Assembly (NCBI GenBank): GCA_050014495.1
Contig: JBEKDF010000001.1
Location: forward strand, 1-64,000
Length of the DNA stretch: 64,000 nucleotides
Reading direction: 5' to 3'
DNA from: Candidatus Bathyarchaeia archaeon
Lineage (GTDB): Archaea; Thermoproteota; Bathyarchaeia; TCS64
The position numbers and the translations under genes were made by a program. Below the pieces are notes generated by a model. That model did not search any database, was not told where the DNA came from, and saw nothing but the letters and a program-made list of their open reading frames with translations. Below, one piece after another: positions 1 through 32,035 of this stretch; position 1 is the first letter of the stretch, and every line of letters begins with the position of its first letter.

Positions 1-604
1 TCCATAGAAGTATGCGTATCCAGTCTAGGTCGAGTGAGTCAAGCACACGCTCAACGTTCAACCTACACTCAAGGAAGAGTTATGCGATGTATTATTTAAT
101 TTCTAAACAGCCTTGCGCGCGCCGCACGCAATTACAGTATCTGTATGCACTAGCATTTAGTTACAACGCGCGCGACATGAGAGCGTTAAGAACCGGGAAA
201 AGACTTCGATACTCGTAGTACTTTTATGCATTTTTTCTTTAAATGTTAGACGCAATTCGGTAAAATATACAACTTAAATCGAGCTCCTAGGGTAATAAAA
301 TAAGTTACCTCAGTAATTCAATTAAAACACTTACTTCGCTGCATAACAGTGGAAGAAAAACTTACATATTGAACTATTTTATAATAAGCTTGACATTTTG
401 TAGACGCTTATCCTAGTATGGTTATAGCAATTATCCAACAAGAGTATATGTGCACGCGCATAAAGTGATTGTATGACCAATAAGATTCTCCAGATAAACA
501 TGAAGAATGAAAAGACTATGAATAAATTAATTCTAACTGTAGTTATCTCGATACTAGTTCTCTCTCCTCTAAACGCGCGCAATTTGCTTGTTGGTGAATA
601 AAAG

Positions 605-907
605 TTGATGGACAACAACTTGTACAATCTTATGGAACAGTTGATTATAGAGAGTAGAAGTCTTTGGAGGATAAAGAATGAGTACAAAAGGAATGCTCAA
701 GAAGATACAAGCAGCGTCTGGAGTATCGTGCGCCCACGCTATACTCCAGATTGCCCAGCTTGCACAGCCTTTTGGGTGGAGTTAGAGAAGCAGAAGGAGG
801 AGAATATCAGGAAGCTCGAATCATTGATACGGGACCGCATGAATGAGCTTGAGGTGAAATCAAGTGACATTTCAACGAATTCTAAACTCTATAATGTAGC
901 GAAATAA
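605..907 (+). CDS. Small helical hypothetical protein, possibly ferritin-like, with CxxC
   Basis: 100-aa ORF with helical pattern (NNLYNLMEQL..ESRSLWRIK..Y; CPACTAFW.ELEKQKEE); flanked by CG tracts at 573-581 and 929-937. Confidence 0.55.
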   Translation: MMDNNLYNLMEQLIIESRSLWRIKNEYKRNAQEDTSSVWSIVRPRYTPDCPACTAFWVELEKQKEENIRKLESLIRDRMNELEVKSSDISTNSKLYNVAK

Positions 908-1097
908 CGTCCATCGGATTGAGATGTTCGCGCGCGCAGACTGGAGCAAAGCTAAGTCAACCATTTACAAGATAACTGACTTAGTATCAGGTGGAACTGA
1001 GGATAAGGCTATTGAGTGGGTTTGGGGGATAAGAGTAATCCTGTAAGACACGTTCTCTAGATCGATCTCATGCGCGTTCTTTAGCTGTCTCAGTCTG

Positions 1098-4000
1098 TTA
1101 AGTTATAATGTGTAGAGTTTCTCCTACTCGGTTTATTCTATTAGACTCTAGTAGTTTCTCAAGCTCCGTTTCGAGTATTCGATTGGTTTTCGGTGTCTGC
1201 CTGGCTCTGAAGAAGTTCGCGGTTTCCTGAATGAGCGATTCTTGGCTCAGACCCATGGAGTGACTGAGAACGTGCAGCATTGTTGTTTCTATCTCCTCCG
1301 AGGATATGTATTCGATCGGTCTTATCTCCGCTTGGGGCTCATTGAGGGGTACCCTGACCTTGACGGTTGTAACTCCATTAGGCCAGAGGAATTCTCCGCG
1401 TCTCTCAAATCTGCCTTTTTTAGCCATCTCCTCAATAGTCGCCCAGTAAGCTTTGTGGAAAGCAGGGGGTGTCGGCCTCAGGTTCATGGCTTTGTTTAGT
1501 CTTTTGAAGGCGTATTCTTTGTGTATAGGCCCTTCTGTGCGGACCAGCTTGGGTATTAGGTTTCTGACTTCTAGGCGGTAGAGATTAAGGTAGAGTTGCT
1601 TCTGGTTTGAGGGGATATTGTTGAAGGTTTGGCTGGGTTCTAGGGATGCCCTCCGATAGGGCTCCGACCCGGGGAGTTCGTCGCTTCTTCTCTCGGTTAC
1701 TTTTTCATGCTCAAGGCTTCTTTTTTTTTGAGTTGTTCTTTGAAACTGTGGATTTTCATGGTGTTTTTCGTAGGTTTCAGCTCGCTTGAGTGCTTGTGCG
1801 AGGCGCTCCATCTCTGTTGATCGCCTATGCACCCACTCTGGGGACCAGATTCTGTGGAGGTTCCAGCCCATTCCCTCGAGTACCTGGGCTCTGAGTCTGT
1901 CCCTGTCCCTCGCTGTGGGTGTTGACCGGTAGCCCTCTCCATCGAGAATGATGCCGAGTATGAACCTGTCTAGGTTCTCTGGGGTCTTGACTCCGATGTC
2001 TACCCTAAGTGAGCTTTCCCCGACCTGCGGGACTGCTATGTAACCGAGTCTGCGGATCTCTTCTGTGACCTCTTTCTGTATTTCTGATTGTGTTACTGCC
2101 TCTTCTTCCGGCTTCTCTTGGTTGGATGCCTGTTCCGCGTAGGTCAGGTAATTGTGTAGACACTTAACGCCAAGGGATTTGGTTGAGGATAGGTCGATGT
2201 CACTTGACTTAATGGAGCTGACGAGTATGACCTTCTCGCGGGCACGGGTTACAGCGACATTCAGCCTGCGCTCTCCGCCCTCCATGTTCAGCGGGCCGAA
2301 GTTCATAGTCATTGTGCCTCCTTTGTCATAGCCGTATCCAACGCTGATCACCATGACATCTCTCTCGTCACCCTGGACGTTCTCCAGGTTCTTGACGAAG
2401 AAGCCTCGGAGGCGGTCCTCCTGCAGTAGCTTTTCATACTCGGTGTTCTCAGTTAGGCGGGCCTCGATTTCATCTTTCACGGTGTTCATCTGGCTGATGC
2501 TGAAGGTCATGACGCCCAGGGATTTCTCCGGGTGCTCTGTGAGGTGTTTGAACACGATGTCAGCCACAACTTCAGCTTCCCTCGAGTTATTGCGGGCACC
2601 TCCCCGGTCGTAGACTCCGTCTGGTACGTAGGTGAACGCTATCCCGAGCTCGCCCCCCATATTGGTGGCGGAGGGGAAGACAACGAGTTTGTTGTCGTAG
2701 AACTCCTTGTTTGAGAACGCTATTAGAGAGTCGTGCTTGCTCCTGTAGTGCCAGCGTAGCATGCTGACTGGGAGTCCCATGCCCATGCACTCGTCCAGTA
2801 CGCTATCGTAGACACCTACTTCATCGGTTGCCTCCTCCCACTCGGCGTCGTTTTCGGCGATATACTGGAAGAATGGTGTAGGGGGTAGCTGCTTGTTATC
2901 CCCTGCCACTATCAGTGTGTCGCCCCTGTATATGGATCCCACCGCGTCCTCGGTGAAGATCTGTGAGGCCTCGTCGAAGACAACTAGGTCGAAGTGTAGC
3001 CGCCCCGGTAGAATGAATTGGCTCACGGAGATGGGGCTCATCAGGAGGCAGGGTTTCAGCTTCCGAATGAGGTTGGGTATCCTGTTGAATAGGTGGCGGA
3101 GCGGCATCTGCCTCCTCTTCTTTGCGGCCTCCTTGAGTAGGATGGTTATCTCAGAATCCGGAGCTTCTACGAAGACTCCCTGAGGTTTTTTTGCGTTGGC
3201 TGACTCTATGACCTTCTTAGGCGACTTCTCTATTAGTGCAGCGTCGAGAGATCTGAAGTCGTCGACGGCCTGGTCATGGTCCCTCGCCCTGAAGGAGCTT
3301 AGGGTTGAGTCCTCCTCCATGAAGTGGTTGAGGAGTCCATTGTAGATGGATTTCCTGTATATGTCGATTAGAAGCTCTCTGCGGTATCTCTTCTCAACGA
3401 GCTCTTTGACTAGGCTCCCCAGTCCCTCCTCTCTGAGTGTCGAGGTTGACTTGTTGTAATCCACCCATGCTTGCAGGTCATCTATTCTTTGGGCGAGTCT
3501 CTCCGAGACAAGTAGGACCTCGTCGACGCTGAGGCTTTGAGGTCGTTTTCTCCAGAGTGGACTGCTGAATCTTGAGTTCAGCTCATCGATGTGATGGTAT
3601 ATCTGTTGGAGGCACTTCTCGGTTTCAAGTTTCAGTCTTTCGAGGGAAGGGTCGGTGGCGAAGCTGATGACCTCCGACGTCGGCTTTGGTGGCAGGGCCT
3701 TGAGGAGGCTGCGTGTCCATTCTATTGCTGCGATTACATTCAACCAGTCGGTGGAGATACCTTGGTAGAGTCCTCCAAATTTATTCTTTAGTTGTGGAGA
3801 CTGTTCGGGCTCAGTCTCCTCGAAGACTTGAAGCCTCTCAGTCTTCCTGATGTCTGAGAGGAGCCGTGTGAGAGTCTTGGGGGGATCTGTTTTCGCTGTA
3901 AGTAGGGCTGGCTTAATAGCTTCGTGGAGGGAATCTAATCTCTTGTTGAGCTCAGCGGCCCAATCTTTCACCTCACTCAGCTGGAGGTTCACGATCTTGG

Positions 4001-7223: not shown

Positions 7224-7268
7224 CTCATTTGATCATTTTGATTCGCACATAATCTTTATTCATTTATG

Positions 7269-7619: not shown

Positions 7620-7777
7620 TTTCTTAGTCCCCGATTAAAGTTTAATTATCCGTGAATATAAATTCAGAAATTCGTGTGTAGGACATGGGCATAAAGGACA
7701 TCAAATCCCCAGGCAAGGGTGCACGCGCATTAATATTAAATAATTTAAAAATCTGGTAAGATATCACGCGCGCGTAG

Positions 7778-9418: not shown

Positions 9419-9559
9419 TAAAGATTACTTCGACGAACTAGAATTAAAGAAACACTTATCAGAGCTGTATGTCACACGCGCGAGGTGAACGCACTTTTAA
9501 AAAAAAATTCATAGAACTCTTTAATTGTATGGCAACAAATTTTAGTATTGTGATTTTAG

Positions 9560-9877
9560 TTGCTTAAATGTCCTAATTGTGATTCTGAGATCCCTGACGA
9601 TTCAGTTTACTGCAAGAATTGTGGCACTCGTCAAGGAAAATTTGCCACCGAGGAGTTCTCAGTGGTGGCCAACGATGTCATGAAGAGAGTTGAGGAACTA
9701 CTTCACGAGGGAAACATAACAAGAATCGTGGTCAAGGATGAAAATGGGAAACAGCTGATTGAGATCCCAGCAACCGTAGGCGTCGTTGGCGCAATCATCG
9801 CCCCATGGATGGCTGCACTCGGAGTCATCGCCGCGATTGCGACGAGATGCACCATAGTCGTCGAGAAGATAGTATGA
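9560..9877 (+). CDS. Zinc-ribbon + DUF4342 domain protein
   Basis: CPNC..YCKNCG ribbon followed by VEELLHEGNITRIVVK..LIEIP.TVG. Confidence 0.8.
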   Translation: MLKCPNCDSEIPDDSVYCKNCGTRQGKFATEEFSVVANDVMKRVEELLHEGNITRIVVKDENGKQLIEIPATVGVVGAIIAPWMAALGVIAAIATRCTIVVEKIV

Positions 9878-10075
9878 CTCAGTCGAATACTGGCCAGTTC
9901 CTATTTTGATGTAAAATAGTTTTTGCCTGCGCTGCGGTGGTTCGATGCTCATCTAGGGGATTATTTGTTATTAGGTATGTGTACGCGGAACTTATCACCG
10001 ATTGTTCGTGGACTTGGGTAGGTTAACACGCGCGATCGGTACGCTTGAGTGATGTCATTTGTTAATTGAGACCAC

Positions 10076-10858
10076 TTATTTGCCCTTGAAGGTTGGCTTC
10101 CTCTTCTCAAGGAATGCCCTCATTCCCTCTGTTTTGTCTTCAGTGTCAAAGCATCTCGCGTAAAGCTCCGCCTCTAGCTTATCCCCTTCCTCGAGGCTTC
10201 CATAGGAGCTGAAGTTGACGAGTCGCTTACAGTAGCCTACAGCTAGTGGCGCGCGTTCAAGTATCTTCCCTGCGAATTTCCTAGCCTCTGATATAAGTTC
10301 CTCATGCTTAACCACCTTATTTACGAGTCCAAACTTGAGCGCCATTTCAGCGTCTATGCTCTCCCCGGTGAAGAATAGCTGCTTGGCCCTCTTCGGGCCG
10401 ACGATCCTCGGTAGCCTCTGGGTGCCACCGAAGGGTGTTGTTATTCCTAAGCCAGTGGGCGGTTCTCCAAAAAGCGCTTTTTCGGAGGCCAAGACGATGT
10501 CGCAAGCGATGGCGAGGTCACACCCGGCTCCCAGGGCGAGGCCGTTGACGGCGGCGATTACGGGTTTGGGCATGCGCTCCATCTTGTCGAGGATCCTGTG
10601 TGTCATGGAGGCGAAGGAGGCCGCATCATTGCTATTCATTCCTAAGAGAGCTCTCACGTCGCCGCCTGCCGAAAATGCTCGTTCCCCCTCCCCAGTAATT
10701 ATCATCACCCTCATTTCGTCTATACTCGAAAAATCGGTCAAGGTCTGCTCGAGCTCCAGGAAAGTTTCTCTGCGGAGGGCGTTTAGCACGTCGGGCCTAT
10801 TTATCTTGACTAGTAGAATTTTATCCTCTCTATCTACGATTAGATCTTTGAAAGACAT
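10076..10858 (-). CDS. Enoyl-CoA hydratase/crotonase family protein
   Basis: INRPDVLNAL, AFSAGGD, PVIAAVNGLALGAGC, GGTQRLPR, FLEKRKP.FKG; start moved to the ATG of MSFKD. Confidence 0.9.
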   Translation of the reverse strand: MSFKDLIVDREDKILLVKINRPDVLNALRRETFLELEQTLTDFSSIDEMRVMIITGEGERAFSAGGDVRALLGMNSNDAASFASMTHRILDKMERMPKPVIAAVNGLALGAGCDLAIACDIVLASEKALFGEPPTGLGITTPFGGTQRLPRIVGPKRAKQLFFTGESIDAEMALKFGLVNKVVKHEELISEARKFAGKILERAPLAVGYCKRLVNFSSYGSLEEGDKLEAELYARCFDTEDKTEGMRAFLEKRKPTFKGK

Positions 10859-11008
10859 AGTATTCGAATAAGGTAATTTGTTGTTTCTATTATATTGTAG
10901 TTCTGGACAGCTCAGTTCACTAAGTGTTCGCTTGGACTGGAGACAAGTGAACATAGAAATATCCTTGGGACGATTTGATAAAAGCTAGTCGCCTATACTT
11001 TTTCGGGA

Positions 11009-11953
11009 TTATAAGGAGTTGGGCTGCTTGGAACTTGCCTGCGGTGACTCTTCCTCATCGCTGTCTTCTTTGCTCTCGCCACCGTAGATGAACTGGAGGT
11101 CGTCGAAGCTAAGCTTCTCACCCGCAGCCATCTTGCGTTGAGCCTCCTGGCGTAGAGCCTCGACCCTGGCGTTGACCTTCGCCATCTTGTCTCTCTCGAC
11201 CTTTAGATCATCTGCTCTTAAGCCATCTCTTATACCACGGAACTGGAGCCCGATGCCATCTAGCTCCTGTTCGACCTTTTTAACCTCCCCGAGGTATTCG
11301 ACGAACTTTGCGTGTGCCTGGTTGGCCTTCTCCCTCTCGTCGTCGGCCTTCCTGTGTAGGAGGAGCATCGACTCGTGGTGCTTCTGGCTCTCTTCACGGA
11401 GTTTGTTCATCTCGTCACGTATCTGGCGGATGTTCATCTCGGTAGCCTTAGCCTCGGCTGTGGCCTCCATTGTGGCCTCGGTCTTCTTCGGGGGCTTCTT
11501 GAAGGTACTTAACCTGCGCCTCAGATTGTTGGCACGTTCGACTAGTTCTAGCTCCCGCTCCCTGTCAAGGAGTTCTCTGGTTGGGGTCGTCATGACCTCC
11601 CACTCGACGGTGTTGAGGTCGCGTTCAACCCTCCTCTTCTTGGGGAGCTCCCTGTAACCCGCCTGAACCTCTTGCTCGATGCCTGCTAGCTTCTTCCTCT
11701 TCTCGTCTAGTTGATCGTAGAGGGGTTGGAGCTTGTTCTTCACTTCGGCGACTTGTGCGTTGATCTTATCTCGTTCCTCTTTGTGTTTTATCGCCTCTTC
11801 CCGAATCTTATGGGCGGACTCGTTGATCCTATCACGCTCATCGCGCCAGCGATTGACGTGTTCAAATAGTTCGCTCCGCTTTCTGCGGAGATCGGAAGCC
11901 ATTGTTTCAAGCTGTTCGAGCTTGAGGTCGTCACCAGACATCAGCAAATACAC
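11009..11953 (-). CDS. Archaeal long coiled-coil protein (COG1340-like)
   Basis: Heptad-rich; E..V.TTP..L..ERELVE and C-terminal GEKLSFDDL motif. Confidence 0.7.
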   Translation of the reverse strand: MYLLMSGDDLKLEQLETMASDLRRKRSELFEHVNRWRDERDRINESAHKIREEAIKHKEERDKINAQVAEVKNKLQPLYDQLDEKRKKLAGIEQEVQAGYRELPKKRRVERDLNTVEWEVMTTPTRELLDRERELELVERANNLRRRLSTFKKPPKKTEATMEATAEAKATEMNIRQIRDEMNKLREESQKHHESMLLLHRKADDEREKANQAHAKFVEYLGEVKKVEQELDGIGLQFRGIRDGLRADDLKVERDKMAKVNARVEALRQEAQRKMAAGEKLSFDDLQFIYGGESKEDSDEEESPQASSKQPNSL

Positions 11954-12255
11954 CGTTTAGGGGTCTCAGACCTACGCCTACTATTCACTTCGGACCTTAT
12001 TCAAAAAGGAATCGGCTCAATATACTAAATTTTATAACAAATTTAGTTACTTCTTTCCGTTCTTAGGGTGAATAAGGGACTCAACCCATGGTTTTAAGAG
12101 TTAAATGTTTTTTAATTTAATCTAACAATTTGATTGCCTTTTTCAAGGCTATTTTTATTGAGTAGAGGCAAAGTGTAACCATAAAGGTGGTCCGAGCTGA
12201 CGGAGTCTCTCATGAAGAGGATAGTTGCGATATAAGATCCTATTGGAAGTAGGGT

Positions 12256-12882
12256 TTATTCTTCCTCTTCCTCGTCGTCTTTTGGCTTTGGGGGCTCTCC
12301 CTGTGTCTTCTTCCCGAATCCAACTATAAGATCTACTAGTTGCTTCTGGTCGACCTCCGCGCGACTCCTCCAGTCGAGGTAGAGGACGCCTTTTTCGTCC
12401 TCGCCGAGGTAACCCTGCTGAATGTATCGGTCTATACTCATCTTCACTCGCCATCCAGGTAGCTTATCTTGGAGGAGCTTCTCCACGTCCGTGCGTGGTG
12501 TCTTCCCCTGCTTCGAGATTATGTAGGCGATGGAGACTGCGAGACCCGCTATGTCATCAACGCGCCAGCCAATTGTCTTTGCAGCTTTTTGGTCGATGCC
12601 GCTGCGCATGGTAATGTAGTATCGAGCGTCGGCGAGTTGGGCCTGATCTGGGTCGATAATGTTTGTGTCATCAAGGACCCTCGTGACTTGGAGGTCGAGA
12701 GGCTGGACCTGCTTATCGAGTACTTCTAGCACGTTTTGCCAATCTGGACCGAGTTCCTGGCGGAGTTCCCATCCACGTACACCAGGTAACCTATGATGTT
12801 GGAAGAATAGTAGATGTGCTGCATCCTTTATCTTGTGGGCGTAACCGGCCTCTGATCTTATTCTTTTCGCCATATTTTCCAC
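12256..12882 (-). CDS. Putative kite (tandem winged-helix, ScpB/Nse-like) subunit of an SMC-like complex
   Basis: 208 aa; third gene of an overlapping operon with the SMC ATPase and kleisin-like gene; C-terminal wHTH-like pattern (IDRYIQQGYLGEDEKGVLYLDW). Confidence 0.55.
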   Translation of the reverse strand: MENMAKRIRSEAGYAHKIKDAAHLLFFQHHRLPGVRGWELRQELGPDWQNVLEVLDKQVQPLDLQVTRVLDDTNIIDPDQAQLADARYYITMRSGIDQKAAKTIGWRVDDIAGLAVSIAYIISKQGKTPRTDVEKLLQDKLPGWRVKMSIDRYIQQGYLGEDEKGVLYLDWRSRAEVDQKQLVDLIVGFGKKTQGEPPKPKDDEEEEE

Positions 12883-13646
12883 TCCTCGTAGTCAACCAAT
12901 GTGGGTATGCTGACCCGCACCTGACCCGGGTCTGGGTTGGGCTCGATGTTGTGTATGATCTCTATTTTCTCTCCGAATCTGTCGGATTCAATGTTTGCGT
13001 AGCCGTAACTAACTAAGAAGACCGTGAGGTAACTGCGCTTCACTGACTCCTCATATGTGTCTGCCCCAATCCAGTCCCAATAGCTGATGCGGCCACCCTT
13101 GCCGACGTGTTTCTCTAGTTCTCTCCAGAAGGACTCGATGATTTCCGCGAAGCCCTCCTCAGGTAGGTACCCAAGGGCACGTGCCTCGTCCAGGGTTGCG
13201 GTGCCTGCGTCGATTAATTGGGGGTTGGACTCCTTCCATCTCTCCGCGAGTGGGATGAGGTCGGTCCAGTAGCTGAGGCTTCCAGCAAGTGTGCTCGCGC
13301 TGAGCTGCTCCATTTGCACCATCGGGTGCCAGCTCCTGAGGAACGAGTCGGCGATGGCGGAGATGTCCATTCGTTGAATCTGTTGGTTCAGGAGGAACGG
13401 GTCCTTGTAGAGGGTGGTGCTTTGGTGTTGTATCCAGTTGTTCTGGCTTTGGAGGACCTCGCTGAGACCATTTATCGCTGCTGCGTCTGTGCAGAAGTCT
13501 CGGAGGCTTGTTGTCTCCGGGTAGTATCTGCGTATAACTTCGAGCATGTAGTCGATGTCTACCGCGAATGGCTCGACGCTACCAGCTTGGACGGCACGGC
13601 AGAGGCTAATGACTCCGTCGAGTTCGTCCCTTTTTCTGCTGCTCAT
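12858..13646 (-). CDS. Putative kleisin (ScpA-like) subunit
   Basis: N-term GSVEPFAVDI resembles ScpA IDPWDIDI; C-term V..SYLTVFLVSYG..NIESDRFGEKIEI resembles the ScpA C-terminal wHTH; 4-bp overlap with the SMC gene. Confidence 0.65.
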   Translation of the reverse strand: MSSRKRDELDGVISLCRAVQAGSVEPFAVDIDYMLEVIRRYYPETTSLRDFCTDAAAINGLSEVLQSQNNWIQHQSTTLYKDPFLLNQQIQRMDISAIADSFLRSWHPMVQMEQLSASTLAGSLSYWTDLIPLAERWKESNPQLIDAGTATLDEARALGYLPEEGFAEIIESFWRELEKHVGKGGRISYWDWIGADTYEESVKRSYLTVFLVSYGYANIESDRFGEKIEIIHNIEPNPDPGQVRVSIPTLVDYEEWKIWRKE

Positions 13647-15697: not shown

Positions 15698-15812
15698 CCT
15701 GCGGCGCCTCTGAACTCCTGAGTCTAATAGTCCTCTATTTTTAAACCTACCCCGCTTTTTTCCGGTGGGGTGGATGAAAGTGAAGGTAAAGGGTAGCCCT
15801 TAAACCTTTTAC

Positions 15813-16856
15813 ATGATGGGGGTGATGGTTGAGGGGATTGTTATGGTCGAACTCTCTGCGAGGCAGGAGGAGGAGGCGAAGCGGATTCATAAGGAGGCCA
15901 TAGTCGTCGATACACACTGCGATACTTTGATGGCGTTCATGCCTCAGCAATATGGGCAACCCCCTGCGAGGAAGCTTGGTGAACGGAGTGAACGTGGTCA
16001 CATAGATCTCCCCCGAATGAAGGAGGGGGAGGTGGATTGCCAGACATTCGCCATGTACACTGGGCGCCGGGAAGGGCAGCATGACGCCCTGCTTACGGCG
16101 ATGCAAATGACTGATGTTTTCTACACGGAGATGGAGGAGAATAAGGAGGATATAGTGCCCGTGGTATCCGTAGAAGAGATTAGAGCCGCGAAGAGGGTTG
16201 GGATGTGCAGTGGCCTCCTCTCAATCGAGGGGGCGGAGCCTCTGATGGGTGATCTCGGTGTGCTTCGCGACTTTTACAAGCTCGGAGTCAGGATGGTCAG
16301 CTTCACGTGGAACTGGCGAACACCCTTCGCGGATGGTCTCGCAGCCTCCCGCGCTGAGAGCAAGCTCACGGATCTCGGCGTCAAAGCCATAGAGGAGATG
16401 GATCGCCTCGGCATAGTCCTCGACACAAGCCACATCAGCGACTCTTGCTTCTGGGATGTCGCCGATGTGAAGAAGGGCCCATTCATCGCGAGCCACAGCA
16501 ACAGCCGCGTAGTATGCGACCACAAGAGGAACCTCACCGATGACATGCTTAACGCCCTCGCGGACCACGGTGGGGTTGCGGGGATGAACTTTGCCCCCGA
16601 GTTCGTAGCAAAGGAAGGGGCAACCGTGGAGAAGCTTGTGGACCATATAGATTACATCGTGAAGAGGGTGGGGCCGGATCACGTGGGTCTTGGATCCGAC
16701 TTTGATGGAATAGGTACGCCACCAGTGGGGCTTGAGGACGTCTCGAAGATGCCAAATATTACTCGGGAGCTCGTCCGACGCGGATATGAGGAGGAGGATA
16801 TCAAGAAGATTCTAGGTGGCAATCATCTTAGGATCCTTGGAGAAATCCTCAAGTAA
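15813..16856 (+). CDS. Membrane dipeptidase (peptidase M19)
   Basis: DTHCDT, SIEG, DTSH, ASHSN, VGLGSDFDG, ILGGN motifs; true start may be 15843. Confidence 0.9.
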   Translation: MMGVMVEGIVMVELSARQEEEAKRIHKEAIVVDTHCDTLMAFMPQQYGQPPARKLGERSERGHIDLPRMKEGEVDCQTFAMYTGRREGQHDALLTAMQMTDVFYTEMEENKEDIVPVVSVEEIRAAKRVGMCSGLLSIEGAEPLMGDLGVLRDFYKLGVRMVSFTWNWRTPFADGLAASRAESKLTDLGVKAIEEMDRLGIVLDTSHISDSCFWDVADVKKGPFIASHSNSRVVCDHKRNLTDDMLNALADHGGVAGMNFAPEFVAKEGATVEKLVDHIDYIVKRVGPDHVGLGSDFDGIGTPPVGLEDVSKMPNITRELVRRGYEEEDIKKILGGNHLRILGEILK

Positions 16857-16943
16857 TAATGGCATCGAGGTTTTTTTCGGGATAGGTGTCAAATTGTTTT
16901 ATATTAATTAGTATGGTTCCCGATGGGTTTACAGGGATAGGTC

Positions 16944-18033
16944 CTGTCCGATGGTAAGCTTAAGCGGAGGCTAGGCCTCTTCGATGCGACAGCGATAAAC
17001 GTTGGAGCGATCATCGGGGGTGGCATATTCGTTGTGACGGGGATTGTGGCTGGGTTAGCGGGCTCAGCCCTCGTTGTCTCAATGTTGCTCGCCGCGATAA
17101 CTAGCCTCTTCACTGCGTTAAGCTACGCGGAGTTGGGAGCATGGTTACCACAGGAGGGAAGCGTCTACGAGTACGGGTATAGGCTACTCTTCCCCGCTGC
17201 TGGGTTCCTTGGAGGTTAGATGTGGATTCTGTCAAATATCTTCAGTGGGGTAGCGGTGGCTCGGGCTGGGCAACTACTCTGCTGCCCTGTTCCAAAATCT
17301 GAGTCCGAGCCTTGTGGCGGCGGTAGTCTGCGTTGCTTTTACCGGCCTCAATTATTTTGGGATCCAGCGCGCACGCGCGAGGGTGGCTATGGTCGCTGAG
17401 GAGATCAAGGATGCTGAGAGGGTCGTCCCTAGGGCGATTATGCTCTCACTCGCTATATCAACGGTTTTCTACATTGCTGTGGGGTTGGTGGCGGTGGGGC
17501 TCGTGGGTGCTGGTGGCCTTTCAGGTACAGGGCACCCGTTGGCTGTCGCGATGGCGGTAACGGGAAGCGACACGGCTGTCCTACTCGTCTCCCTGGGGGG
17601 AATCATCTCCACTGCGAGTGTCCTCCTGACGAGCATCCTCGGAGTCTCGAGACTAGGTTTCGCCATGTCACGGCGCGGAGACATGCCCACCGCACTAGGT
17701 AGGCTTCACACCAGATACGGATCACCAAGTATCTCAGTGATCCTGACAGGTGCCTTAATGACTGCTCTTGCGTTATTCTTCGATTTGAGCAGCGTGGTTG
17801 CTGTAGGCACCTTTGCGATGCTCTTCTACTATTGTATTGGGAACTTGTCAGCTGTTAGGCTTCCGAAATCTTATGCTCGTTACCCTTCATATGTGCCCTT
17901 GCTCGGGGTGATGAGCTGCTTAGCTTTCTTAGTCTTTGCTGTTTTCCTTTCGCCCAGTTCTTTGGTGGTTGGTTTGGTTGCGCTTGGCGTAGGTTCCCTC
18001 TACTACCTTCTGATTCACCGTAAAAGGATCTGA
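16944..18033 (+). pseudogene. APC-family amino acid permease, disrupted
   Basis: LKRRLGLFDATAINVGAIIGGGIF N-terminus; in-frame TAG at 17217-17219 where Trp is expected; frameshift near 17260; internal deletion at 17367-17379 joining NYFGIQ to ARVAMVAEE. Confidence 0.85.
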
Positions 18034-18099
18034 TGATCTCTAACTCTGCACGAATAAAGAGAAGAGAAAGATAAAAAAACGGATTCAGTGTGTGAAGTC

Positions 18100-19281
18100 T
18101 TAAGCTTTGATTCCTTTGACTGCTTTTTCGAGTCTCTCAAGGGCTTGCTTCATGGTACTTCTTGGGCAAGCGATATTCCATCTCATGAACATGGATCCAC
18201 CGCTACCGAACATCGTGCCATCGTCAAACCAGAGTTTCGCCTTCTTCAGCATGAAGTCATGGAGAACTGCGTCGTCCATGCCTAGGGAGGTGCAGTCCAC
18301 CCATGCGAGGTAGGTGCCCTCAAGCGGGTATACTTTTAGTCCGGGGATCTTCTCCTTGATGAACTTCTCAAGGTAAGCGAGGTTCCCTTTCAGATACACG
18401 AGGAGCTCATCCAGCCATGCCTCACCCTTCGCGTATGCTGCTTCCTGCGCCACCATTCCGAATATGTTGGCGGAGTGGATACCTGAGTTCGTCGTTACGT
18501 TTAGGAACGCGTCCCTGAGCTTTTTATTCGGTATGACGGCGTCCGAATTAGATAATCCGGCGAGGTTGAAGGTCTTACTGGGGGCAGTCAGGGTCACAGT
18601 TCTCTGCATCGCCTTCTCTGAGATAGTTGCGGTACAGGTGTGCTTTATCTTCCCAAGGATGAGGTCAAAATGGATCTCATCAGATATGATCAATATGTCT
18701 TTCTTCTCGCAGACCTCCACTAGTTGCTCAAGCTCTGCCTTGGTCCAGACCCGGCCCACTGGGTTGTGGGGGCTACAGAGAATGATCATCTTTGTCCTGC
18801 CATCGATCTTCTTCTCTAGGTCCTCGTAATCCATCTCGTATCTTCCCTTCACGATTTTGAGGGGGTTATCGACGAGCTGCCTACCGTTGTTTAGTATCGC
18901 GTTCTTCATGGGGTAGTAGACAGGTGGCTGGATGATGACTTTGTCACCGGGCTGCGAATATGCCTGGATTGCAAAGTTGAAGCCTGCTACGACGCCTGGT
19001 GAGTAGCAGATCCATTCCCGCTGGATCCCGCTCCAATCGTGACGCTTCTTCATCCAGTTGATGAAATTGTTGTAGTACGCTTCGGTACTACTGGTGTACC
19101 CGTAGATGGGGTGGGCTGCCCGAGCCTTGATCGCTTCCTGGACCGCTGGAGGGCTCGCGAAATCCATGTCCGCGACCCAGAGAGGTATAACGTCCGCTAC
19201 ACCCGAGTATTCCTTCCTGTAGCTCCACTTCGAGGAGCTTGTTGGGAGTCTGTCGATTATCGTGTCGAAGTCATAAACCAT
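18100..19281 (-). CDS. MalY/PatB family PLP C-S lyase (cystathionine beta-lyase-like)
   Basis: PLWVADMDF, LCSPHNPVGRVW, SDEIH, APSKTFNLAG, EGTYLAWVD. Confidence 0.9.
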   Translation of the reverse strand: MVYDFDTIIDRLPTSSSKWSYRKEYSGVADVIPLWVADMDFASPPAVQEAIKARAAHPIYGYTSSTEAYYNNFINWMKKRHDWSGIQREWICYSPGVVAGFNFAIQAYSQPGDKVIIQPPVYYPMKNAILNNGRQLVDNPLKIVKGRYEMDYEDLEKKIDGRTKMIILCSPHNPVGRVWTKAELEQLVEVCEKKDILIISDEIHFDLILGKIKHTCTATISEKAMQRTVTLTAPSKTFNLAGLSNSDAVIPNKKLRDAFLNVTTNSGIHSANIFGMVAQEAAYAKGEAWLDELLVYLKGNLAYLEKFIKEKIPGLKVYPLEGTYLAWVDCTSLGMDDAVLHDFMLKKAKLWFDDGTMFGSGGSMFMRWNIACPRSTMKQALERLEKAVKGIKA

Positions 19282-19641
19282 TGCTGATTCACTGTATGAG
19301 AATACACATGCTACCTAGATATGAGTTCATCTCATGTGACGACAAAACACTAAGAATGTCATCACACACGAAACTCTCGCGCAGAGAATGTTATCGCAAG
19401 GGCAGTAAAATCAGTATGCACGCTCTCGCGCGCGTAGTCAGCAAATCGAAGGAGGAGTACAAGTCCCGTAAGTGTACTCGAGGAAGATCTTCATGGTCTT
19501 GTGAGGGATATAAAAAGAGAAAAATTTGGTGGATCAGCCTGTCTTAGGAGCGTGTACTTTTCCTGCGAATCCAGCATGTGAATGCTTAAAACGAAAAAAT
19601 GCGTTCTTGTGTAGGATATTAATTCGTTTATTTATGGGGTT

Positions 19642-20880: not shown

Positions 20881-21345
20881 ATGGACGATCAGCAAAACTG
20901 GACTTCGCCTGAATGGGCTTACTTAAAGAATCGACCGCTAACGGATGATGCCTACTTCGAGAACCTCACAAGAGCTGTATTCAATGCTGGTCTCAACTGG
21001 AAAACTATCGATGTGAAATGGGGAGTCTTTAAGAGGGCTTTTAAGAACTTTTCAATTGAAGAGGTGGCGAAGTTCACGGAGAAGGATGAGTATAGACTGA
21101 TGGAGGATCCGGGGATAGTGAGAAATAGGGCTAAGATAGCCGCCACCATCTTCAATGCTCGTCAAATGGTGGCAATCAGGAGTGAATTCGGGAGCTTCCA
21201 GGAGTTCTTGGATGGTCTCGACAAGTGCAATAAATACTCTAAGGTTATCGAGGACTTGAGCAGGCGGTTTAAGCATATTGGCAAGTCGACAGCGGAGATC
21301 TTCCTGTGGAGTGTTGGAGAAGATATAGAGCAGTGCGCGCACTGA
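20881..21345 (+). CDS. DNA-3-methyladenine glycosylase I (Tag-like)
   Basis: YFENLTRAVFNAGLNW, F.RAF.NF, IVRNRAKI.ATI.NA, RFKHIG. Confidence 0.85.
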   Translation: MDDQQNWTSPEWAYLKNRPLTDDAYFENLTRAVFNAGLNWKTIDVKWGVFKRAFKNFSIEEVAKFTEKDEYRLMEDPGIVRNRAKIAATIFNARQMVAIRSEFGSFQEFLDGLDKCNKYSKVIEDLSRRFKHIGKSTAEIFLWSVGEDIEQCAH

Positions 21346-21430: not shown

Positions 21431-21868
21431 ATGCAGCGAGGAAAATTTGCTCCTGAACTAGTGGCACCGTGTGGGATGAATTGTGGAATTTGTAAGCGGT
21501 ACCTAGCATACTCAAGAGGCATCCCCAAGGAAAGGGGCAAAGTAATTCATTGTCAAGGTTGTCTTCCAAGCGATAAAAACTGCTACATTAAAAGAGGATG
21601 CAAAAAAATTTCGAATAATGAAATCAGATTCTGCTTCGAATGTGATAAGATGCCATGTAGAAATTTGACTCATATTGATAAGAGGTATCGGGAGAAATAT
21701 GAAATGAGTATGATTGAAAATCAAAAAGAGATTGAGGGTAAGGGGATTAAAGAATTTCTAGATAACCAAGAAAGTAGATACAAGTGTTCAAGATGCGGGG
21801 ACGTCGTTTCCGTTCATGACGGAAAATGCTACAAGTGTGGACAAAATTCACATGTTCGAAAGACATAA
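21431..21868 (+). CDS. DUF3795 family Cys-rich protein
   Basis: APCGMNCGIC, CQGC, FCFECDKMPC, C-terminal CSRCG...CYKC; AT-rich relative to neighbours. Confidence 0.75.
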   Translation: MQRGKFAPELVAPCGMNCGICKRYLAYSRGIPKERGKVIHCQGCLPSDKNCYIKRGCKKISNNEIRFCFECDKMPCRNLTHIDKRYREKYEMSMIENQKEIEGKGIKEFLDNQESRYKCSRCGDVVSVHDGKCYKCGQNSHVRKT

Positions 21869-21967
21869 CCACAAATTCACTTTGGAATGCGCGCGCGCAC
21901 AACCTCGAAATTCAAATGCCATCTTGTAACAATATCGCTTATTAGAAACCAGAAACTGCTTCTGGAT

Positions 21968-22375
21968 ATGGAGTTTGATACAAAAATCGTCGTGATACTA
22001 AGAGATGACCTCGCATTGTGGCAGAAGCTGAACGTCACTGCTTTCACTATCAGCGGGATCGCTGGCACCGAGCAGATTGTGGGTGAGAACTATGTGGACG
22101 CTTCAGGTAATGTCTACCTCCCCATGAGCAGGCAGCCCATACTTATCTTCGGCGCTAACAGGCAGAAGATGAGGGAGGTCTACGGTCGGGCTATGAAGAG
22201 AGGTATGAAATTCAGCATCTACACGGAGGAGCTCTTCAAGACTTATAACGATGAGGATAACCGCGCCGAGGTCGCGAAGGTGAGGGGCGAGGATCTGAAT
22301 CTCGTTGGGATGGCTATTAGGAATACGAAGAGGCAGATAGACACGGTTGTGAAGGGGCTAACTCTTCATCCGTAG
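21968..22375 (+). CDS. DUF2000 family protein (PTH2-like fold)
   Basis: DTKIVVILRDDLALWQKLNVTAF..SGI, Y.DASG, FKT.ND.DNRA. Confidence 0.75.
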   Translation: MEFDTKIVVILRDDLALWQKLNVTAFTISGIAGTEQIVGENYVDASGNVYLPMSRQPILIFGANRQKMREVYGRAMKRGMKFSIYTEELFKTYNDEDNRAEVAKVRGEDLNLVGMAIRNTKRQIDTVVKGLTLHP

Positions 22376-23630: not shown

Positions 23631-23765
23631 GTAAATCGCGCGGGCTCGATGGTGGCACGAGTATGATATCATTAGAGTGTACAGAAGTATGAATATGCGT
23701 GGACGGTATCATAATGGTGATGAAAGAAATACACTTATGGACAAGTTTTCTTGTGGTGGAAACAT

Positions 23766-24659: not shown

Positions 24660-24928
24660 ATAACCACTCAACAAACCGTGGAGATGATGGGTTTATACGT
24701 CAATGATATTGACTTTCTAAAATTTTCTTCAAGGCGCATGTAACGATTGACCTTCACCTGTACCTGTTTACCGGAAAACGGATGGGTCTTCGTCTTCGCT
24801 AACCGTTCGTGTACATTGATTACGAAGTGTTTCGTCCGCGCGAGGCCTCGAGAAATAATGAGCGTGTATATAGATATACGTGGTCGCCGTATTTGATCTC
24901 TAATTACCTGTATTCTGGTTCAAGGTGG

Positions 24929-25804: not shown

Positions 25805-25809
25805 TTGCA

Positions 25810-27063: not shown

Positions 27064-27260
27064 TTACTATAAAAGTCGCCAAAGTGTTCTAATTCCTGAT
27101 GCGCGCGCGTGTTAAACTCCGTACAGGAAACCGCGCGTTTTATCCTATCAGAGTACTTCAGAAAAAACCCGTAGAGACGATTAAATTCGCGACAGGGGCT
27201 TGACAATAAATTATCCGCCGCGCGAATACGGCGGCCTTTAGCACGTGTTAAATTCGTTTT

Positions 27261-28421
27261 TTAATAGACTAGGGTGATCTCGATTGTTTTTCCGTTTCTT
27301 AGTACGTTGAACTTGATCTTTGTGCCATGTATGTGGTATTGGCTGAGGTAGTGCTTCAGTTCCTCTGTGTTGTTGAGGGGTATGTCCTCGATGCTGTTGA
27401 TGACGTCTCCGCCGAGCATGCCCTCTATACCATCAAACACTCTGGGGATGGTACCAGCTCTTAGCCCTGCTTTCTCGGCGATGGAGTTCGGGAATACACC
27501 GATTACAAGTACTCCTCGTGTCTCTTTCTCCAGACCCATGTCGGTAGCTATTCTGTCGGTTAGTGTAAACCCTATTATACCAATAGGTTCGGGTGCAGGT
27601 TTGTTTATCGGAGCCCCTTCCTTCTCTACGCGCGTGAGTTGTTTTGCCATCCCGCTTTCTGCCTCTTGGATAGGCTTAGTTTCCGGTCTGTTCCCCGATT
27701 TACTCAAGTCTTCTAGGGGAAGAGCCAACGGGTATACCTTGTAATCATAAGTTACGAGCGCGTTGGTGTAACGGTTAATAATAGTCGGGAGGAGGGTTTT
27801 GATTAAGTTCTGAAATGCTATGCTAGCCTTCTCTCTACTCCTCGCTAACTTCTCATTGGCGGCATCGAGCTCCCTCATCGAATTAAGGTAAGGGTCGTTG
27901 GCGAACCTAGTGTATGTCTCACCCTTCAGCGGATCCCATCCGAGGGCTGGCAGCAGCTCTCCTCTTAGCCCCGAGATCCAGTGAAGGATTAGGGTTGGGT
28001 TAACCCCCAATATCGTGTCCAGCCTTCCCTGTAGTATCTCTTCGCGTAGCCGGGCGACCCTCAACCCGAACTCGCCGTAGTATGTGTATCTCTCGACCCC
28101 GCTGTCAATATTGTTCACCCAGCCATCTCCCAGTGGGTCGAGACCCACTCGTATGTTTGTGTCAGGCTCCACGCTTAGGTTGGATGCACCCATGGCGTTG
28201 GTTCGTGAATGCACGAGGTATATGCCTTGGAGGACAGGGATTAGGGCCTGTCTTCTGTAGGATTCGTCAACACTCTGCACGATCTTATCTATGGCATCTA
28301 CGGTTGCCTCCCTCCTGCTGGTGTTCGACCTATACTCCACGGCCTTGTCCAGCCCCTCGACGACGCTGCAGTTACCGAGCAGCGCCCCAAGATCCTGGAT
28401 GAGGGCAGCGGCGTCGATCAT
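27261..28421 (-). CDS. Hypothetical protein with C-terminal HtrA-like PDZ domain
   Basis: GVLVIGV.PNS.AEKAGLRAG...GGDVI...VLRNGK PDZ pattern; N-terminal ~260 aa unrecognised. Confidence 0.65.
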   Translation of the reverse strand: MIDAAALIQDLGALLGNCSVVEGLDKAVEYRSNTSRREATVDAIDKIVQSVDESYRRQALIPVLQGIYLVHSRTNAMGASNLSVEPDTNIRVGLDPLGDGWVNNIDSGVERYTYYGEFGLRVARLREEILQGRLDTILGVNPTLILHWISGLRGELLPALGWDPLKGETYTRFANDPYLNSMRELDAANEKLARSREKASIAFQNLIKTLLPTIINRYTNALVTYDYKVYPLALPLEDLSKSGNRPETKPIQEAESGMAKQLTRVEKEGAPINKPAPEPIGIIGFTLTDRIATDMGLEKETRGVLVIGVFPNSIAEKAGLRAGTIPRVFDGIEGMLGGDVINSIEDIPLNNTEELKHYLSQYHIHGTKIKFNVLRNGKTIEITLVY

Positions 28422-30178: not shown

Positions 30179-31413
30179 TTAGGTTACTGCCCTAACCACT
30201 CCCGACAAGAGATCCTTGACGAGGATGTCACGCTGCTCCCTCTGTGGATTATTGTTTCCGAGTCTAGCGATCACGAGGTCAAGGCTCGGGATGACATAGC
30301 AGTCGTTTACGTTATGACCCCTCGATGCGAATGTGTCCATGGGAACGCCATCCCACTCATCCTGCATCCAAAACGTGTAGCCATAATTCATCGGCGTGCT
30401 CCCATCGGGACGCTTGAAACGTGTAGTCGCCTGATTAATCCACTTCTCAGGCACCAACTGCCTCTTGTCCCATCTACCTTTTCTCAGCCACAGATACCCC
30501 AGCCTCGCAAAGTCTCGGGCGCTGCACCTGAAGGTGCTCCCAACCACAGTGTTATACCCGATCGAGCTGCTGCTCCTATTGGCACCATAAGCGTTACATC
30601 CGGTGCTGCCACCCACACCCCAGCCTGGCTGATCTGAGTAGTTGAGTTCCCGCTCGTCTGAGTAGGGCATCTCCCTGTAGAAGTTGTCACAGAGCTCTAA
30701 GGGCATCCCAATCTCCCTGAGGATTCGCTCCCACGCGTATCGCCCCACCTCCATACCTGAGATGTTGCGCATCGCGAGGGCTAGCTGCTCGAGGCCGAAG
30801 TTGCTGTAGTTGAACCCATACCCGGGCTCGAAGAGCAGCTTATGCTGCGCTGGTACCCTTCGAATCGCCACCAGCCAAAGCAGTACTCGTACATCTGGTA
30901 GGGGCCCTCGTAGCCAATGGCGTGGCTTCGTTGGCTGGGAGCGAGCCAGGGTTCGGTGGACTCGTGCCCGGAGGTCATGGATAGGACGTGCTTCACCTTT
31001 ATCCTCGTCTTTCGATCGTCGGTGATGTGCTGTTCCCAGATCTGTGGGATCAGGGATTCCTCGCGGTTCGTCCCGATGAGGGGTGTGTCGAGGCTTACTC
31101 TGCTGCCGTATTCGTTTAGGAAGGCCCCGACCGTTGTTCCGAAGATCGACTTCGTCGATGATTTGACGTCGTTGCATGTGTCCCTTCCCCACGACTGAGG
31201 TCCGCCCTTCTCACCTGTAACGTAGTTCTCAACGATTATGTGTCCCTTGTATACGATGACGAGAGCCCCACCGTAGCTCTTGGTGGCTCCGTGGTTGTTG
31301 TGGCTGCTTATAGTTTGTTTAAGCAGAGTCTCGTTTACTCCAAGTTTCTTGGGATCGGTTACGCGCCAGCCTCCCTCGTGTTCAGGTGGGGGACAGTAAT
31401 CATCAGTTAACAA
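30179..31413 (-). pseudogene. Serine hydrolase, beta-lactamase (class C-like) family, one frameshift
   Basis: SxxK (SSTK), HVLSMTSG, YxN (FNYSN), SARDFARLG.L.L..G.W; frame change at CCC 30856-30858 (possible sequencing error). Confidence 0.8.
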
Positions 31414-31535
31414 TCTATTAGACCAAGTGTAGCTCCAGGTTATTCAATTATGTATGCACGCGCGTTCATTATGCCTACTAAAAGCGAAAACGTATATGAT
31501 ATATTGCACTAGCAAGTACAACATTGGGAGCTAAT

Positions 31536-31982
31536 ATGGTAAAAGCACTCGTACTATACCACTCACAACAGTACGGAAACACGGGCAAGATGGCAGAAGC
31601 TGTCGCGGAGGGGTTGAAAGGAGAGAAATGCGAAGTCACCATCCATAACACAAACGAGGGAAGATTCGACATAACAGAGTACCCACAGTATGACTGCGTC
31701 GCCTTTGGTACGCCAGATTACTTCAGCTACATGGCCGGGACGATGAAAACCTTCATGGACGACTGGTACATAAAGAGAAACGAACCGGGCTACCAACAGA
31801 GGCCATACATCGTCTTCTTCACCCATGGCGGAGGGGGTAGAGGAAAGGAAGCTCTAAGCCTATTCAACAGACTCGGGACCCAGGTGGGGAAAACCGTTGA
31901 GTGTCAGGGCACCCCTAATGCTCAGGTTTTGAAGGAGTGTAAGGCACTAGGCACAGAACTGGGGAAAGCAGCCAAACAATAA
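31536..31982 (+). CDS. Flavodoxin/WrbA-like flavoprotein
   Basis: YHSQQYGNTGKMAEAVAEG, AFGTPDYFSYMAG, FFTHGGGG. Confidence 0.85.
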   Translation: MVKALVLYHSQQYGNTGKMAEAVAEGLKGEKCEVTIHNTNEGRFDITEYPQYDCVAFGTPDYFSYMAGTMKTFMDDWYIKRNEPGYQQRPYIVFFTHGGGGRGKEALSLFNRLGTQVGKTVECQGTPNAQVLKECKALGTELGKAAKQ

Positions 31983-32035
31983 ATGCGCGCGTGCCGCTAA
32001 TCAGATTCATATAGATCTCTTTGAAAAAAAGGATT

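What the first reader, a model, noticed from the sequence alone, without database searches (positions are those of the whole stretch)
115..31994. (CG)n tracts punctuate most accessory-gene boundaries: possible undescribed recombination/end-joining signature
Seen: AT-rich intergenic spacers repeatedly contain isolated GCGCGC/CACGCGCG-type alternating tracts, more than 20 in the first 32 kb. They bracket single genes or small blocks like cassette borders: the 605-907 ORF (573/929), Hhe helicase (1069/6718), SRPBCC pair (6718/7719), UbiB (7765/9473), DUF4342 (9473/10026), DUF3795 (21334/21887), DUF2000 (21887/22383), aminotransferase (22383/23637), DUF362 (23637/24837), amidinotransferase-ArgE (24837/27099), serine hydrolase (30140/31449) and flavodoxin (31449/31983). 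GTGCACGCGCAT occurs identically at 450-461 and 7719-7730. Such tracts are sparse between housekeeping genes at 32-63 kb. Inference: three explanations are possible, namely (a) non-templated or snap-back GC additions left by an end-joining polymerase, (b) core sites of a gene-capture recombinase encoded elsewhere, or (c) Z-DNA-prone fragile sites. Alternating CG is established as the most Z-forming sequence.
Basis: partly seen in the sequence, partly recalled or inferred. Interest (0 to 1): 0.85.

Follow-up and report, generated by a model that had tools for sequence, protein, structure and literature searches.

The report
Written GC scars at archaeal breaks
Short GCGCGC runs of up to ten letters sit where DNA was lost, swapped or moved in this sediment archaeon and many of its relatives, and mostly match neither original sequence, so they are likely written into the join by an undescribed host repair route that jumping genes then likely use as landing sites.

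Summary
GCGCGC is the most enriched intergenic hexamer of this Bathyarchaeia genome (25-fold), and run length stops sharply at 10 nt. Runs of 8 nt or more lie in 53 of 300 synteny-break spacers against 2 of 306 conserved ones. Where an intact homolog exists, 47 of 49 junction sides had only 0-2 nt of the run, and the run replaces 167-455 nt. An IS5/IS1182-like element family is flanked by such runs, but only 41 of 645 runs touch an element end. The same runs fill genomes of other Bathyarchaeia families with no detectable transposase of this kind, including a one-contig genome. Ku/LigD is present here but is neither necessary nor sufficient across 71 family genomes. Best reading (0.5): host end joining writes a self-complementary (GC)n linker, with primase PriSL as untested lead candidate, and the IS colonises the scars. 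Main rival (0.3): IS excision scars with later IS loss. Recombinase cores and plain Z-DNA fragility fit poorly. This scan noted the runs before on three other pieces of the same genome.

The parts
1..114 (-). End of an IS5/IS1182-like insertion sequence; terminal inverted repeat at 99-114; the contig breaks inside the element
   Evidence: Same 120 nt at the ends of contigs C31, C32, C43, C71; repeat scored 16/16
115..122 (.). (GC)4 run abutting the IS end
167..174 (.). (CG)4 free run
450..461 (.). Degenerate run GTGCACGCGCAT, identical to 7719-7730
574..580 (.). 7-nt run left of ORF 605-907
929..937 (.). 9-nt run; its right flank has homologs in C24 and C90 with only 1 nt of seed at the junction
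7767..7774 (.). (CG)4 run at the 3' end of the ABC1/UbiB gene
9477..9482 (.). 6-nt run in a synteny-break spacer
10029..10034 (.). 6-nt run in a synteny-break spacer
17367..17379 (.). Interrupted 13-nt run at a deletion inside an amino-acid permease gene; strain X14 has 194 other letters where the window has 33
19427..19434 (.). (CG)4 run; 8 nt of the window stand where X14 has 317 letters
21335..21340 (.). 6-nt core of the palindrome at 21333-21342, at the end of the methyladenine glycosylase gene
21519..21520 (.). 2-nt GC seed inside DUF3795; X14 breaks here and carries a 10-nt run
21889..21898 (.). (GC)5 run between DUF3795 and DUF2000
22262..22266 (.). 5-nt CGCGC seed inside DUF2000; X14 breaks here and carries an 11-nt run
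23637..23642 (.). 6-nt run after the aminotransferase stop
24837..24842 (.). 6-nt run; the match to G002 starts 3 nt after it
27101..27109 (.). 9-nt run in a synteny-break spacer, with two further 6-nt runs at 27132 and 27219
27629..27634 (.). 6-nt run inside the 153 nt that X14 replaces by 144 other letters
31459..31464 (.). 6-nt core left of the flavodoxin gene
31985..31991 (.). 7-nt run just after the flavodoxin stop, last run before the tRNA
32036..32111 (-). tRNA-Ala(TGC); the run-rich variable region lies off its 3' end; no duplicated tRNA end elsewhere in the assembly
47757..47766 (.). (GC)5 run at the start of a 5'-truncated S9 peptidase (profile positions 96-211), in the conserved half

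Best explanation
The (GC)n runs mark deletion and rearrangement breakpoints and mostly match neither parent, so they are likely linkers written into the join by a host end-joining route, possibly the replicative primase PriSL, and an insertion sequence family likely uses them afterwards as landing sites. Shown: location at breakpoints, 6-10 non-parental nt, loss of 55-455 nt, a ceiling near 10 nt, IS ends flanked by runs, runs in genomes without this IS or LigD. Inferred: after a break both ends are trimmed; a terminal G or C primes, or pairs with, alternating G/C synthesis; because (GC)n is its own complement, any two treated ends can anneal and be sealed, which would also let foreign fragments be captured between two runs; the ceiling reflects a length-counting enzyme. 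Inferred: the IS inserts into existing runs with an even 4-8 bp duplication. I put the identity of the writer as PriSL at about half of this explanation's weight; it is untested.
For: Breakpoints: runs of 8 nt or more in 53 of 300 synteny-break spacers against 2 of 306 syntenic ones, using 1.10 of about 2.4 Mb of G002. Non-parental: of 58 junction sides with a homolog at 88% identity or more, 9 share an existing run; of the other 49, 47 have a 0-2 nt seed and the run adds 6-10 nt in 47 of the 48 sides with a seed up to 3. Seeds of 1 nt or more are enriched (33 of 49 against 44% expected, p 0.001), seeds of 3 or more are not. Five runs with both flanks in one intact homolog replace 167-455 nt that hold no run above 5 nt. 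Strain X14 shows new 10- and 11-nt runs at 2- and 5-nt seeds of window genes. Ceiling: 111 runs of 10 nt, 5 of 11; interrupted runs drop from 46 to 6 at the same step; the drop recurs in G016 (26 to 3). Independent of this IS: only 41 of 645 runs of 7 nt or more abut an element end; 18 of 23 run-rich genomes outside the family lack a transposase hit at 1e-40, while 0 of 50 run-free genomes have one; five run-rich genomes have no hit even at 1e-3; one-contig G145 and G235 have no DDE_Tnp_1 candidate; 5.9 kb read from G172 and G235 show the same anatomy. IS as coloniser: a variable even duplication gives implied targets of 6-10 nt for all 41 elements. Precedent: PriSL repairs breaks in Saccharolobus by terminal transfer and annealing of 2-4 GC pairs, and favours C/G insertions (PMC12019639, abstract and section 19; PMC3333859, abstract).
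Against: No writer was identified: LigD Pol and a PriS paralog (6 of 221 genomes) failed, and PriS is expected in all archaea (recalled), so it cannot by presence explain the patchy spread. Run density does track IS evidence: rho 0.58 with element ends in 71 family genomes, median 8.5 against 2.1 per Mb, and 6.0 against 1.7 outside the family; kin are not independent. IS loss or non-assembly can hide a transposon cause; G145 and G042 are 86% and 76% complete, and other transposase families were not searched there. Counts in other genomes are not corrected for GC content, and G145 was not read. In Saccharolobus about 85% of indels were 1-2 bp, not 6-10 nt. The variable-duplication fit is partly built in, since each side is at most 10. 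The one IS-free allele seen keeps a 6-nt seed on the left, as an IS target model expects. The permease junction at 17367 appears to have 4-nt seeds on both sides.
Confidence: 0.5

Rival explanations
1. The runs are transposon scars. The IS family cuts at short GC seeds; repeated insertion, excision, gap filling and one-sided trimming lengthen the run and move it to new neighbours; genomes with runs but no element have lost it, or host another GC-targeting family.
For: 61 of 66 strong terminal-repeat matches in G000 abut a run of 5 nt or more, and the other 5 have a short or degenerate run or an IS110-like insert. 41 of 53 candidate complete elements have 4-10 nt on both sides, in several genera. 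Density tracks IS evidence. The IS-free allele has a 6-nt seed. The outer two bases of the repeats vary while the GC does not, so the true ends may lie within the run. IS insertion with deletion and no duplication is described (PMC11708052, part 1 of 5; PMC5678879, abstract and section 22).
Against: No fixed duplication fits: 4 bp implies targets above 10 nt in 11 of 41, 6 bp fits only 28 of 41. Seeds of 3 nt or more are no commoner than chance (2 of 49), whereas one round of excision should leave a seed on half the sides. Run-rich G145, G151, G172, G194 and G235 have no hit, and G145 still has 89 A/T-flanked pure 10-mers. Some genomes with intact transposase are run-poor (G045, G066, G072).
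Confidence: 0.3
2. The Ku/LigD non-homologous end-joining operon writes the runs.
For: G000 has Ku, LigD Pol and ligase-phosphoesterase side by side on C3; Ku was found in 15 of 18 family relatives and 0 of 12 others. The 11 run-rich genomes aligned share a Gly where 3 run-poor ones have Glu in a Pol motif.
Against: LigD Pol was not found in genera g11 (0 of 5, including one-contig G033) or g16 (0 of 5), which are mostly run-rich, and is present in run-free G010 and G071 and nearly run-free G001 and G076. Median density with and without it: 4.8 and 5.0 per Mb.
Confidence: 0.06
3. Pre-existing (CG)n runs flip to Z-DNA or hairpins, break, and cause nearby deletions.
For: Alternating CG is the best Z-former (recalled). 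Interrupted runs have a longer tail (21 of 220 at 11 nt or more) than pure intergenic ones (7 of 802). One low-depth X10 contig deletes the 21889 run through a 7-nt microhomology.
Against: Parents lack the run and deleted segments hold none above 5 nt. The mechanism removes runs and does not create them.
Confidence: 0.07
4. The runs are crossover cores of a cassette-capturing site-specific recombinase.
For: Single genes are bracketed by runs and shuffled among relatives.
Against: No conserved flanking bases beyond one position and no arm symmetry; variable length; site absent from parents; junctions inside genes. Integrases were not searched.
Confidence: 0.03

Closest known systems
Primase (PriSL)-mediated microhomology end joining / PADT in Saccharolobus (PMC12019639, PMC3333859)
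   Same: Host route for joining breaks, terminal nucleotide addition, preference for short G/C pairing, C/G insertions at joins.
   Different: There mostly 1-2 bp indels; here 6-10 nt strictly alternating additions with a ceiling at 10, deletions of 55-455 nt, and a patchy spread across a class. No link to PriSL was tested here.
IS1182 and IS5 family insertion sequences, including IS1272 (PMC5678879)
   Same: DDE_Tnp_1 plus DUF772 transposase, terminal inverted repeats of about 16 bp, palindromic targets, insertion sites that differ from the empty allele by a deletion.
   Different: Scores fall far below the family cut-offs; the flanks are (GC)n of 4-10 nt on both sides with no fixed duplication; most runs have no element.
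Ku/LigD non-homologous end joining
   Same: Operon present in G000; joins with 0-2 nt microhomology and added nucleotides fit its recalled behaviour.
   Different: Its presence does not follow the runs across 71 genomes.
IS insertion into existing breaks (PMC11708052)
   Same: IS at the centre of deletions without target duplication.
   Different: No written repeat is mentioned in the part I read (part 1 of 5).
HIP1 palindromes of cyanobacteria and microsatellites (recalled)
   Same: Genome-wide excess of a short GC-rich palindrome or dinucleotide repeat.
   Different: Here not enriched in coding DNA, tied to breakpoints, with a plateau and ceiling rather than a geometric tail.

Membership tests
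PriSL-mediated end joining (PADT) | Replicative primase PriS encoded | tested here: met
   C1:125294-125917, PF01896 at 3e-18; PriL not searched
PriSL-mediated end joining (PADT) | Joins favour short G/C microhomology | tested here: inconclusive
   1-2 nt seeds enriched (33 of 49 against 44%), 3 nt or more not; the paper gives 2-4 GC pairs
PriSL-mediated end joining (PADT) | Products are mostly 1-2 bp indels | tested here: not met
   6-10 nt additions with 55-455 nt losses; old genomic scars and fresh colonies are not a like-for-like comparison
PriSL-mediated end joining (PADT) | Primase adds nucleotides and bridges ends in vitro or in vivo | not testable with these tools
   needs protein or culture
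Ku/LigD NHEJ as the writer | Ku, Pol, ligase and phosphoesterase present | tested here: met
Ku/LigD NHEJ as the writer | Presence follows the scars across genomes | tested here: not met
IS1182 family (the flanked elements) | NCBIfam NF033551 above cut-off 270 | tested here: not met
   74-78 bits for the C-terminal 279-280 aa; the open frame is 330-345 aa against a 488-position model
IS5 family (the flanked elements) | NCBIfam IS5 models above cut-off | tested here: not met
   best NF033581, 44-73 bits against 140
DDE insertion sequence (IS4/IS5 clan) | DDE_Tnp_1 domain with invariant acidic residues, and terminal inverted repeats | tested here: met
   PF01609 above cut-off; invariant D141, D231, E285; repeats
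DDE insertion sequence (IS4/IS5 clan) | Target duplication of fixed length | tested here: inconclusive
   2 or 4 bp is compatible with all 41, 6 with 28, 8 with 5; the only empty allele differs by 62 letters
Site-specific recombinase or integron attC sites | Conserved or symmetric binding arms around the core | tested here: not met
Site-specific recombinase or integron attC sites | Core present in both parents | tested here: not met
   47 of 49 sides with 0-2 nt
Site-specific recombinase or integron attC sites | Cognate integrase in the genome | not tested
   no search run
Slippage microsatellite | Geometric length tail, growth in place | tested here: not met
   plateau at 7-10 then 111 to 5, while AT, AC and AG runs fall steadily; runs sit at deletions
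Z-DNA fragile site | Z conformation in vivo, Z-alpha protein | not tested
   conformation not testable here; no Z-alpha search run

The most novel reading that the evidence does not exclude
Many Bathyarchaeia own a Ku-independent repair enzyme that synthesises a counted, self-complementary (GC)n linker of up to ten nucleotides without a template, turning any broken or incoming DNA end into a universal sticky end. This drives gene capture and loss across the class, and a transposon family, itself targeted by an IS110-like element, has specialised on the scars.
Probability: 0.3. Interest if true: 0.9.

Novelty: new variant of a known kind. Interest (0 to 1): 0.72.

Why it matters
How most archaea repair double-strand breaks without Ku is an open question (PMC12019639 abstract). 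A fixed sequence signature at hundreds of joins per genome gives a readable record of breaks, gene gain and gene loss in a largely uncultured class, and a precise product to assay for. An enzyme that writes a length-limited self-complementary linker would also be a new kind of end-joining tool. Even under the rival reading, this is an unclassified IS group with a (GC)n target that has reshaped whole genomes.

Tried and rejected
Flank motif or extended palindrome: none; direct and inverted repeat search of 1-33 kb gave nothing tied to the runs. Reverse transcriptase: none in G000. LigD Pol Glu-to-Gly idea: dropped once run-rich genera without LigD appeared; my motif count on the homologs used a loose pattern and is not used. 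PriS paralog on C20 as writer: 6 of 221 genomes. PolX and a second PriS-like gene on C53 were seen but not traced across genomes. A replacement motif in run-free G001: none among top 8-mers in 210 kb of 1.8 Mb. Transposase in viral contigs: none; in solved structures by sequence: none; no structure model was obtained. Metagenome scan gave only one identical and one 89% locus. In one search, rows where the homolog held a same-length stretch in place, and self or tandem matches, were set aside; no simple insertion (zero deletion) was seen among 905 runs. The idea that the ceiling is a short-read artefact is weakened by G016 (30 contigs), though G033 and G015 show a few 12-14 nt runs. L364 positions about 9770-19500 had almost no X14 or X16 cover, which shows nothing. 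Literature searches listed no paper on these runs in Bathyarchaeia; the library lacks most subscription journals, and only listings were seen.
Full report
Observation. The tracts are at the stated coordinates. In 1-32 kb there are 22 pure runs of 6 nt or more, 18 intergenic, against a shuffle mean of 1.3 (maximum 5 in 300); in 32-64 kb there are 10, 2 intergenic. Some listed tracts are degenerate. With my own gene calls (3274 genes, 81% coding), GCGCGC ranks first of 4096 intergenic hexamers genome-wide at every Markov order tried and is not enriched in genes. Contigs from runs not marked as sources cross six of the tracts, so they are not chimeras. Related transposase loci carry Bathyarchaeota record titles in 14 of 15 cases, which places the host. 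The run-rich half lies off the 3' end of a tRNA-Ala, where relatives carry other genes.

Shape of the runs. Pure runs number 186, 192, 144 and 111 at 7-10 nt, then 5 at 11 nt; AT, AC and AG runs fall steadily instead. A 0.41 Mb sample of G016 shows the same step (26 to 3). Runs with one transition drop from 46 to 6 at the same place, so the ceiling seems mostly set when a run is made, though their longer tail (21 of 220) allows some pruning of long pure runs. Beyond a T before and an A after, there is no flanking motif or arm symmetry.

The runs are breakpoints. Against 1.10 of about 2.4 Mb of the nearest relative G002 (median gene identity 82%), runs of 8 nt or more lie in 53 of 300 synteny-break spacers and 2 of 306 syntenic ones; the contrast for runs of 6 nt or more holds in all three spacer-length classes. 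Strain X14 (about 96% alike) differs from the window at the runs at 17367, 19427 and 27629, and has new 10- and 11-nt runs where the window has 2- and 5-nt seeds inside DUF3795 and DUF2000.

The runs are mostly new sequence. Of 58 junction sides whose flank has a homolog at 88% identity or more with a different continuation, 9 share an existing run. Of the other 49, the parent supplies 0 nt in 16, 1 in 23, 2 in 8, 3 in 1 and 4 in 1; the added part is 6-10 nt in 47 of the 48 sides with a seed up to 3 (overlapping sets agree). Seeds of 1 nt or more exceed a random-join null (67% against 44%, p 0.001); seeds of 3 or more do not. Among 905 runs, five had both flanks in one intact homolog: 8-11 nt replace 167-455 nt with no run above 5 nt inside, and no simple insertion was seen. 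Two of those five homologs are only 74-80% alike. Direction is inferred from intact reading frames.

An IS family lives in the runs. Many contig ends share repeats that stop at a run; window 1-114 is one. Complete elements are 1.1-1.6 kb with terminal repeats of about 16 bp and a 330-345 aa DDE_Tnp_1/DUF772 transposase that scores below the IS1182 and IS5 cut-offs. In G000, 61 of 66 strong terminal matches abut 5 nt or more. Of 53 candidate complete elements, 41 have 4-10 nt on both sides, with uncorrelated lengths; the other 12 are degenerate, interrupted or doubtful. A fixed 4-bp duplication implies targets above 10 nt in 11 of 41; taking the largest even duplication (4, 6 or 8) gives targets of 6-10 nt, like the free runs, though this is partly built in. 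Sequence beyond IS-side runs is also mostly seedless in homologs (30 of 144 ends had one). The IS-free allele of the C5 element in X14 and X16 keeps a 6-nt seed, then has 62 other letters, against flanks of 9 and 8 nt in G000; it fits a 9-nt scar plus an 8-bp duplication, but also an IS target. Only 41 of 645 runs of 7 nt or more touch an element end.

Distribution. Counts of A/T-flanked 8-mers are high in most of genus g1 and in g11, g15 and g16, and zero in g18 and G010. Across 221 class genomes the runs are patchy, with rich genomes in at least seven other families. Density tracks IS evidence (rho 0.58 in the family; medians 6.0 and 1.7 per Mb outside), but one way only: 0 of 50 run-free genomes outside the family have the transposase, while 18 of 23 rich ones lack it at 1e-40. 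Five rich genomes have no hit at 1e-3; one-contig G145 and G235 have no DDE_Tnp_1 candidate, yet G145 has 89 A/T-flanked pure 10-mers. In 5.9 kb of G172 and G235 the runs again separate single accessory genes and sit beside gene fragments. These counts are not GC-corrected, kin are not independent, the genomes are incomplete, and other transposase families were not searched.

Candidate writers. G000 has Ku, LigD Pol and ligase, but LigD Pol was not found in g11 and g16 (0 of 10, two of them one-contig genomes) and is present in run-free or nearly run-free G010, G071, G001 and G076; densities with and without it are equal. No reverse transcriptase was found. A PriS paralog is too rare. The replicative primase remains: in Saccharolobus, PriSL repairs breaks, adds terminal nucleotides, anneals ends with 2-4 GC pairs and favours C/G insertions, although about 85% of indels were 1-2 bp (PMC12019639, abstract and section 19; PMC3333859, abstract). 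That primases count to about ten nucleotides is recalled, not from a call. No test here links PriSL to the runs.

Mechanism. I commit to host-written linkers (0.5): ends are trimmed, a terminal G or C seeds alternating synthesis up to about ten nucleotides, and self-complementary tails join any two ends, deleting or capturing DNA; the IS later inserts into the linkers. The location, non-parental content, ceiling and distribution are shown; synthesis, the writer and the order of events are inferred. The transposon-scar reading (0.3) needs several rounds per site and traceless loss of the element in several families, but IS insertion with deletion and without duplication is known (PMC11708052, part 1 of 5; PMC5678879, abstract and section 22). 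LigD (0.06), Z-DNA (0.07) and recombinase cores (0.03) fit poorly.

Novelty. Six searches listed no paper on these runs; I saw listings only, and supplements were not consulted. Three earlier notes of this scan describe the runs on other pieces of this genome: two read them as transposon sites or scars, one as written repair scars; the IS1272 lead came from one of them. New here are the class-wide spread, the exclusion of LigD as general cause, the transposase-free genomes and the IS-free allele. I rate it a new variant of end joining, interest 0.72, with a 0.3 chance of a categorically new linker-writing enzyme.

Noticed in passing
G000 C17:58500-58774, C48:6850-7090; L153, L156, L173, L174: An IS110-like element (family judged by eye from the start of its reading frame, not by a profile scan) sits exactly between the IS terminal repeat and its (GC)n run in six places in three genomes; its other end abuts GC runs. 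It looks like a parasite that targets the IS-end/run junction.
   Followed up: partly
G000 C48:7091-7557, C79:7080-7543, C34:18636-19053; several 380-500 nt elements in G016 and G012: Short non-autonomous elements with the same terminal repeats; C48 and C79 appear to carry a small helix-turn-helix-like ORF (read by eye).
   Followed up: no
window 990-1035 and genome-wide: A 22-nt intergenic repeat, TAGCCTTATCCTCACTTCCACC, in 52 identical copies plus variants; the CTTATCC core is often 30-50 nt upstream of a start codon; a second family ends in CCCCCAAACCC. The window has one variant of each on the minus strand. Could be a promoter module or a cassette site.
   Followed up: partly
G145, G151, G172, G235 against G000; G007, G013, G038, G044: Flank and phase differ by lineage: A(GC)5T dominates the listed matches in G172 and G235, T(GC)nA in G000, and CG-first runs outnumber GC-first ones in G007, G013, G038, G044.
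   Followed up: no
L366:1641-1650 (G235): A 10-nt run lies in frame inside a long open reading frame that resembles methionine synthase MetE by eye.
   Followed up: no
window 30179-31413: The serine hydrolase (beta-lactamase family) gene is split over two frames.
   Followed up: no
window 16980-18033: The amino-acid permease gene has an in-frame stop near 17217 besides the run-marked deletion.
   Followed up: partly
G000 C3:63436-67463: Complete NHEJ cluster (Pol, Ku, ligase with C-terminal phosphoesterase, a 251-aa neighbour); Ku was found only in the own family among 30 relatives.
   Followed up: yes
G000 C20:26050-27366: 439-aa PriS paralog beside an AglB-like gene, found in 5 genomes of genus g1 and weakly in one other, of 221.
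   Followed up: partly
Deleted lengths at scars are 167, 194, 296, 316, 317, 317, 430 and 455 nt, which hints at steps near 150 nt; too few to test.
   Followed up: no
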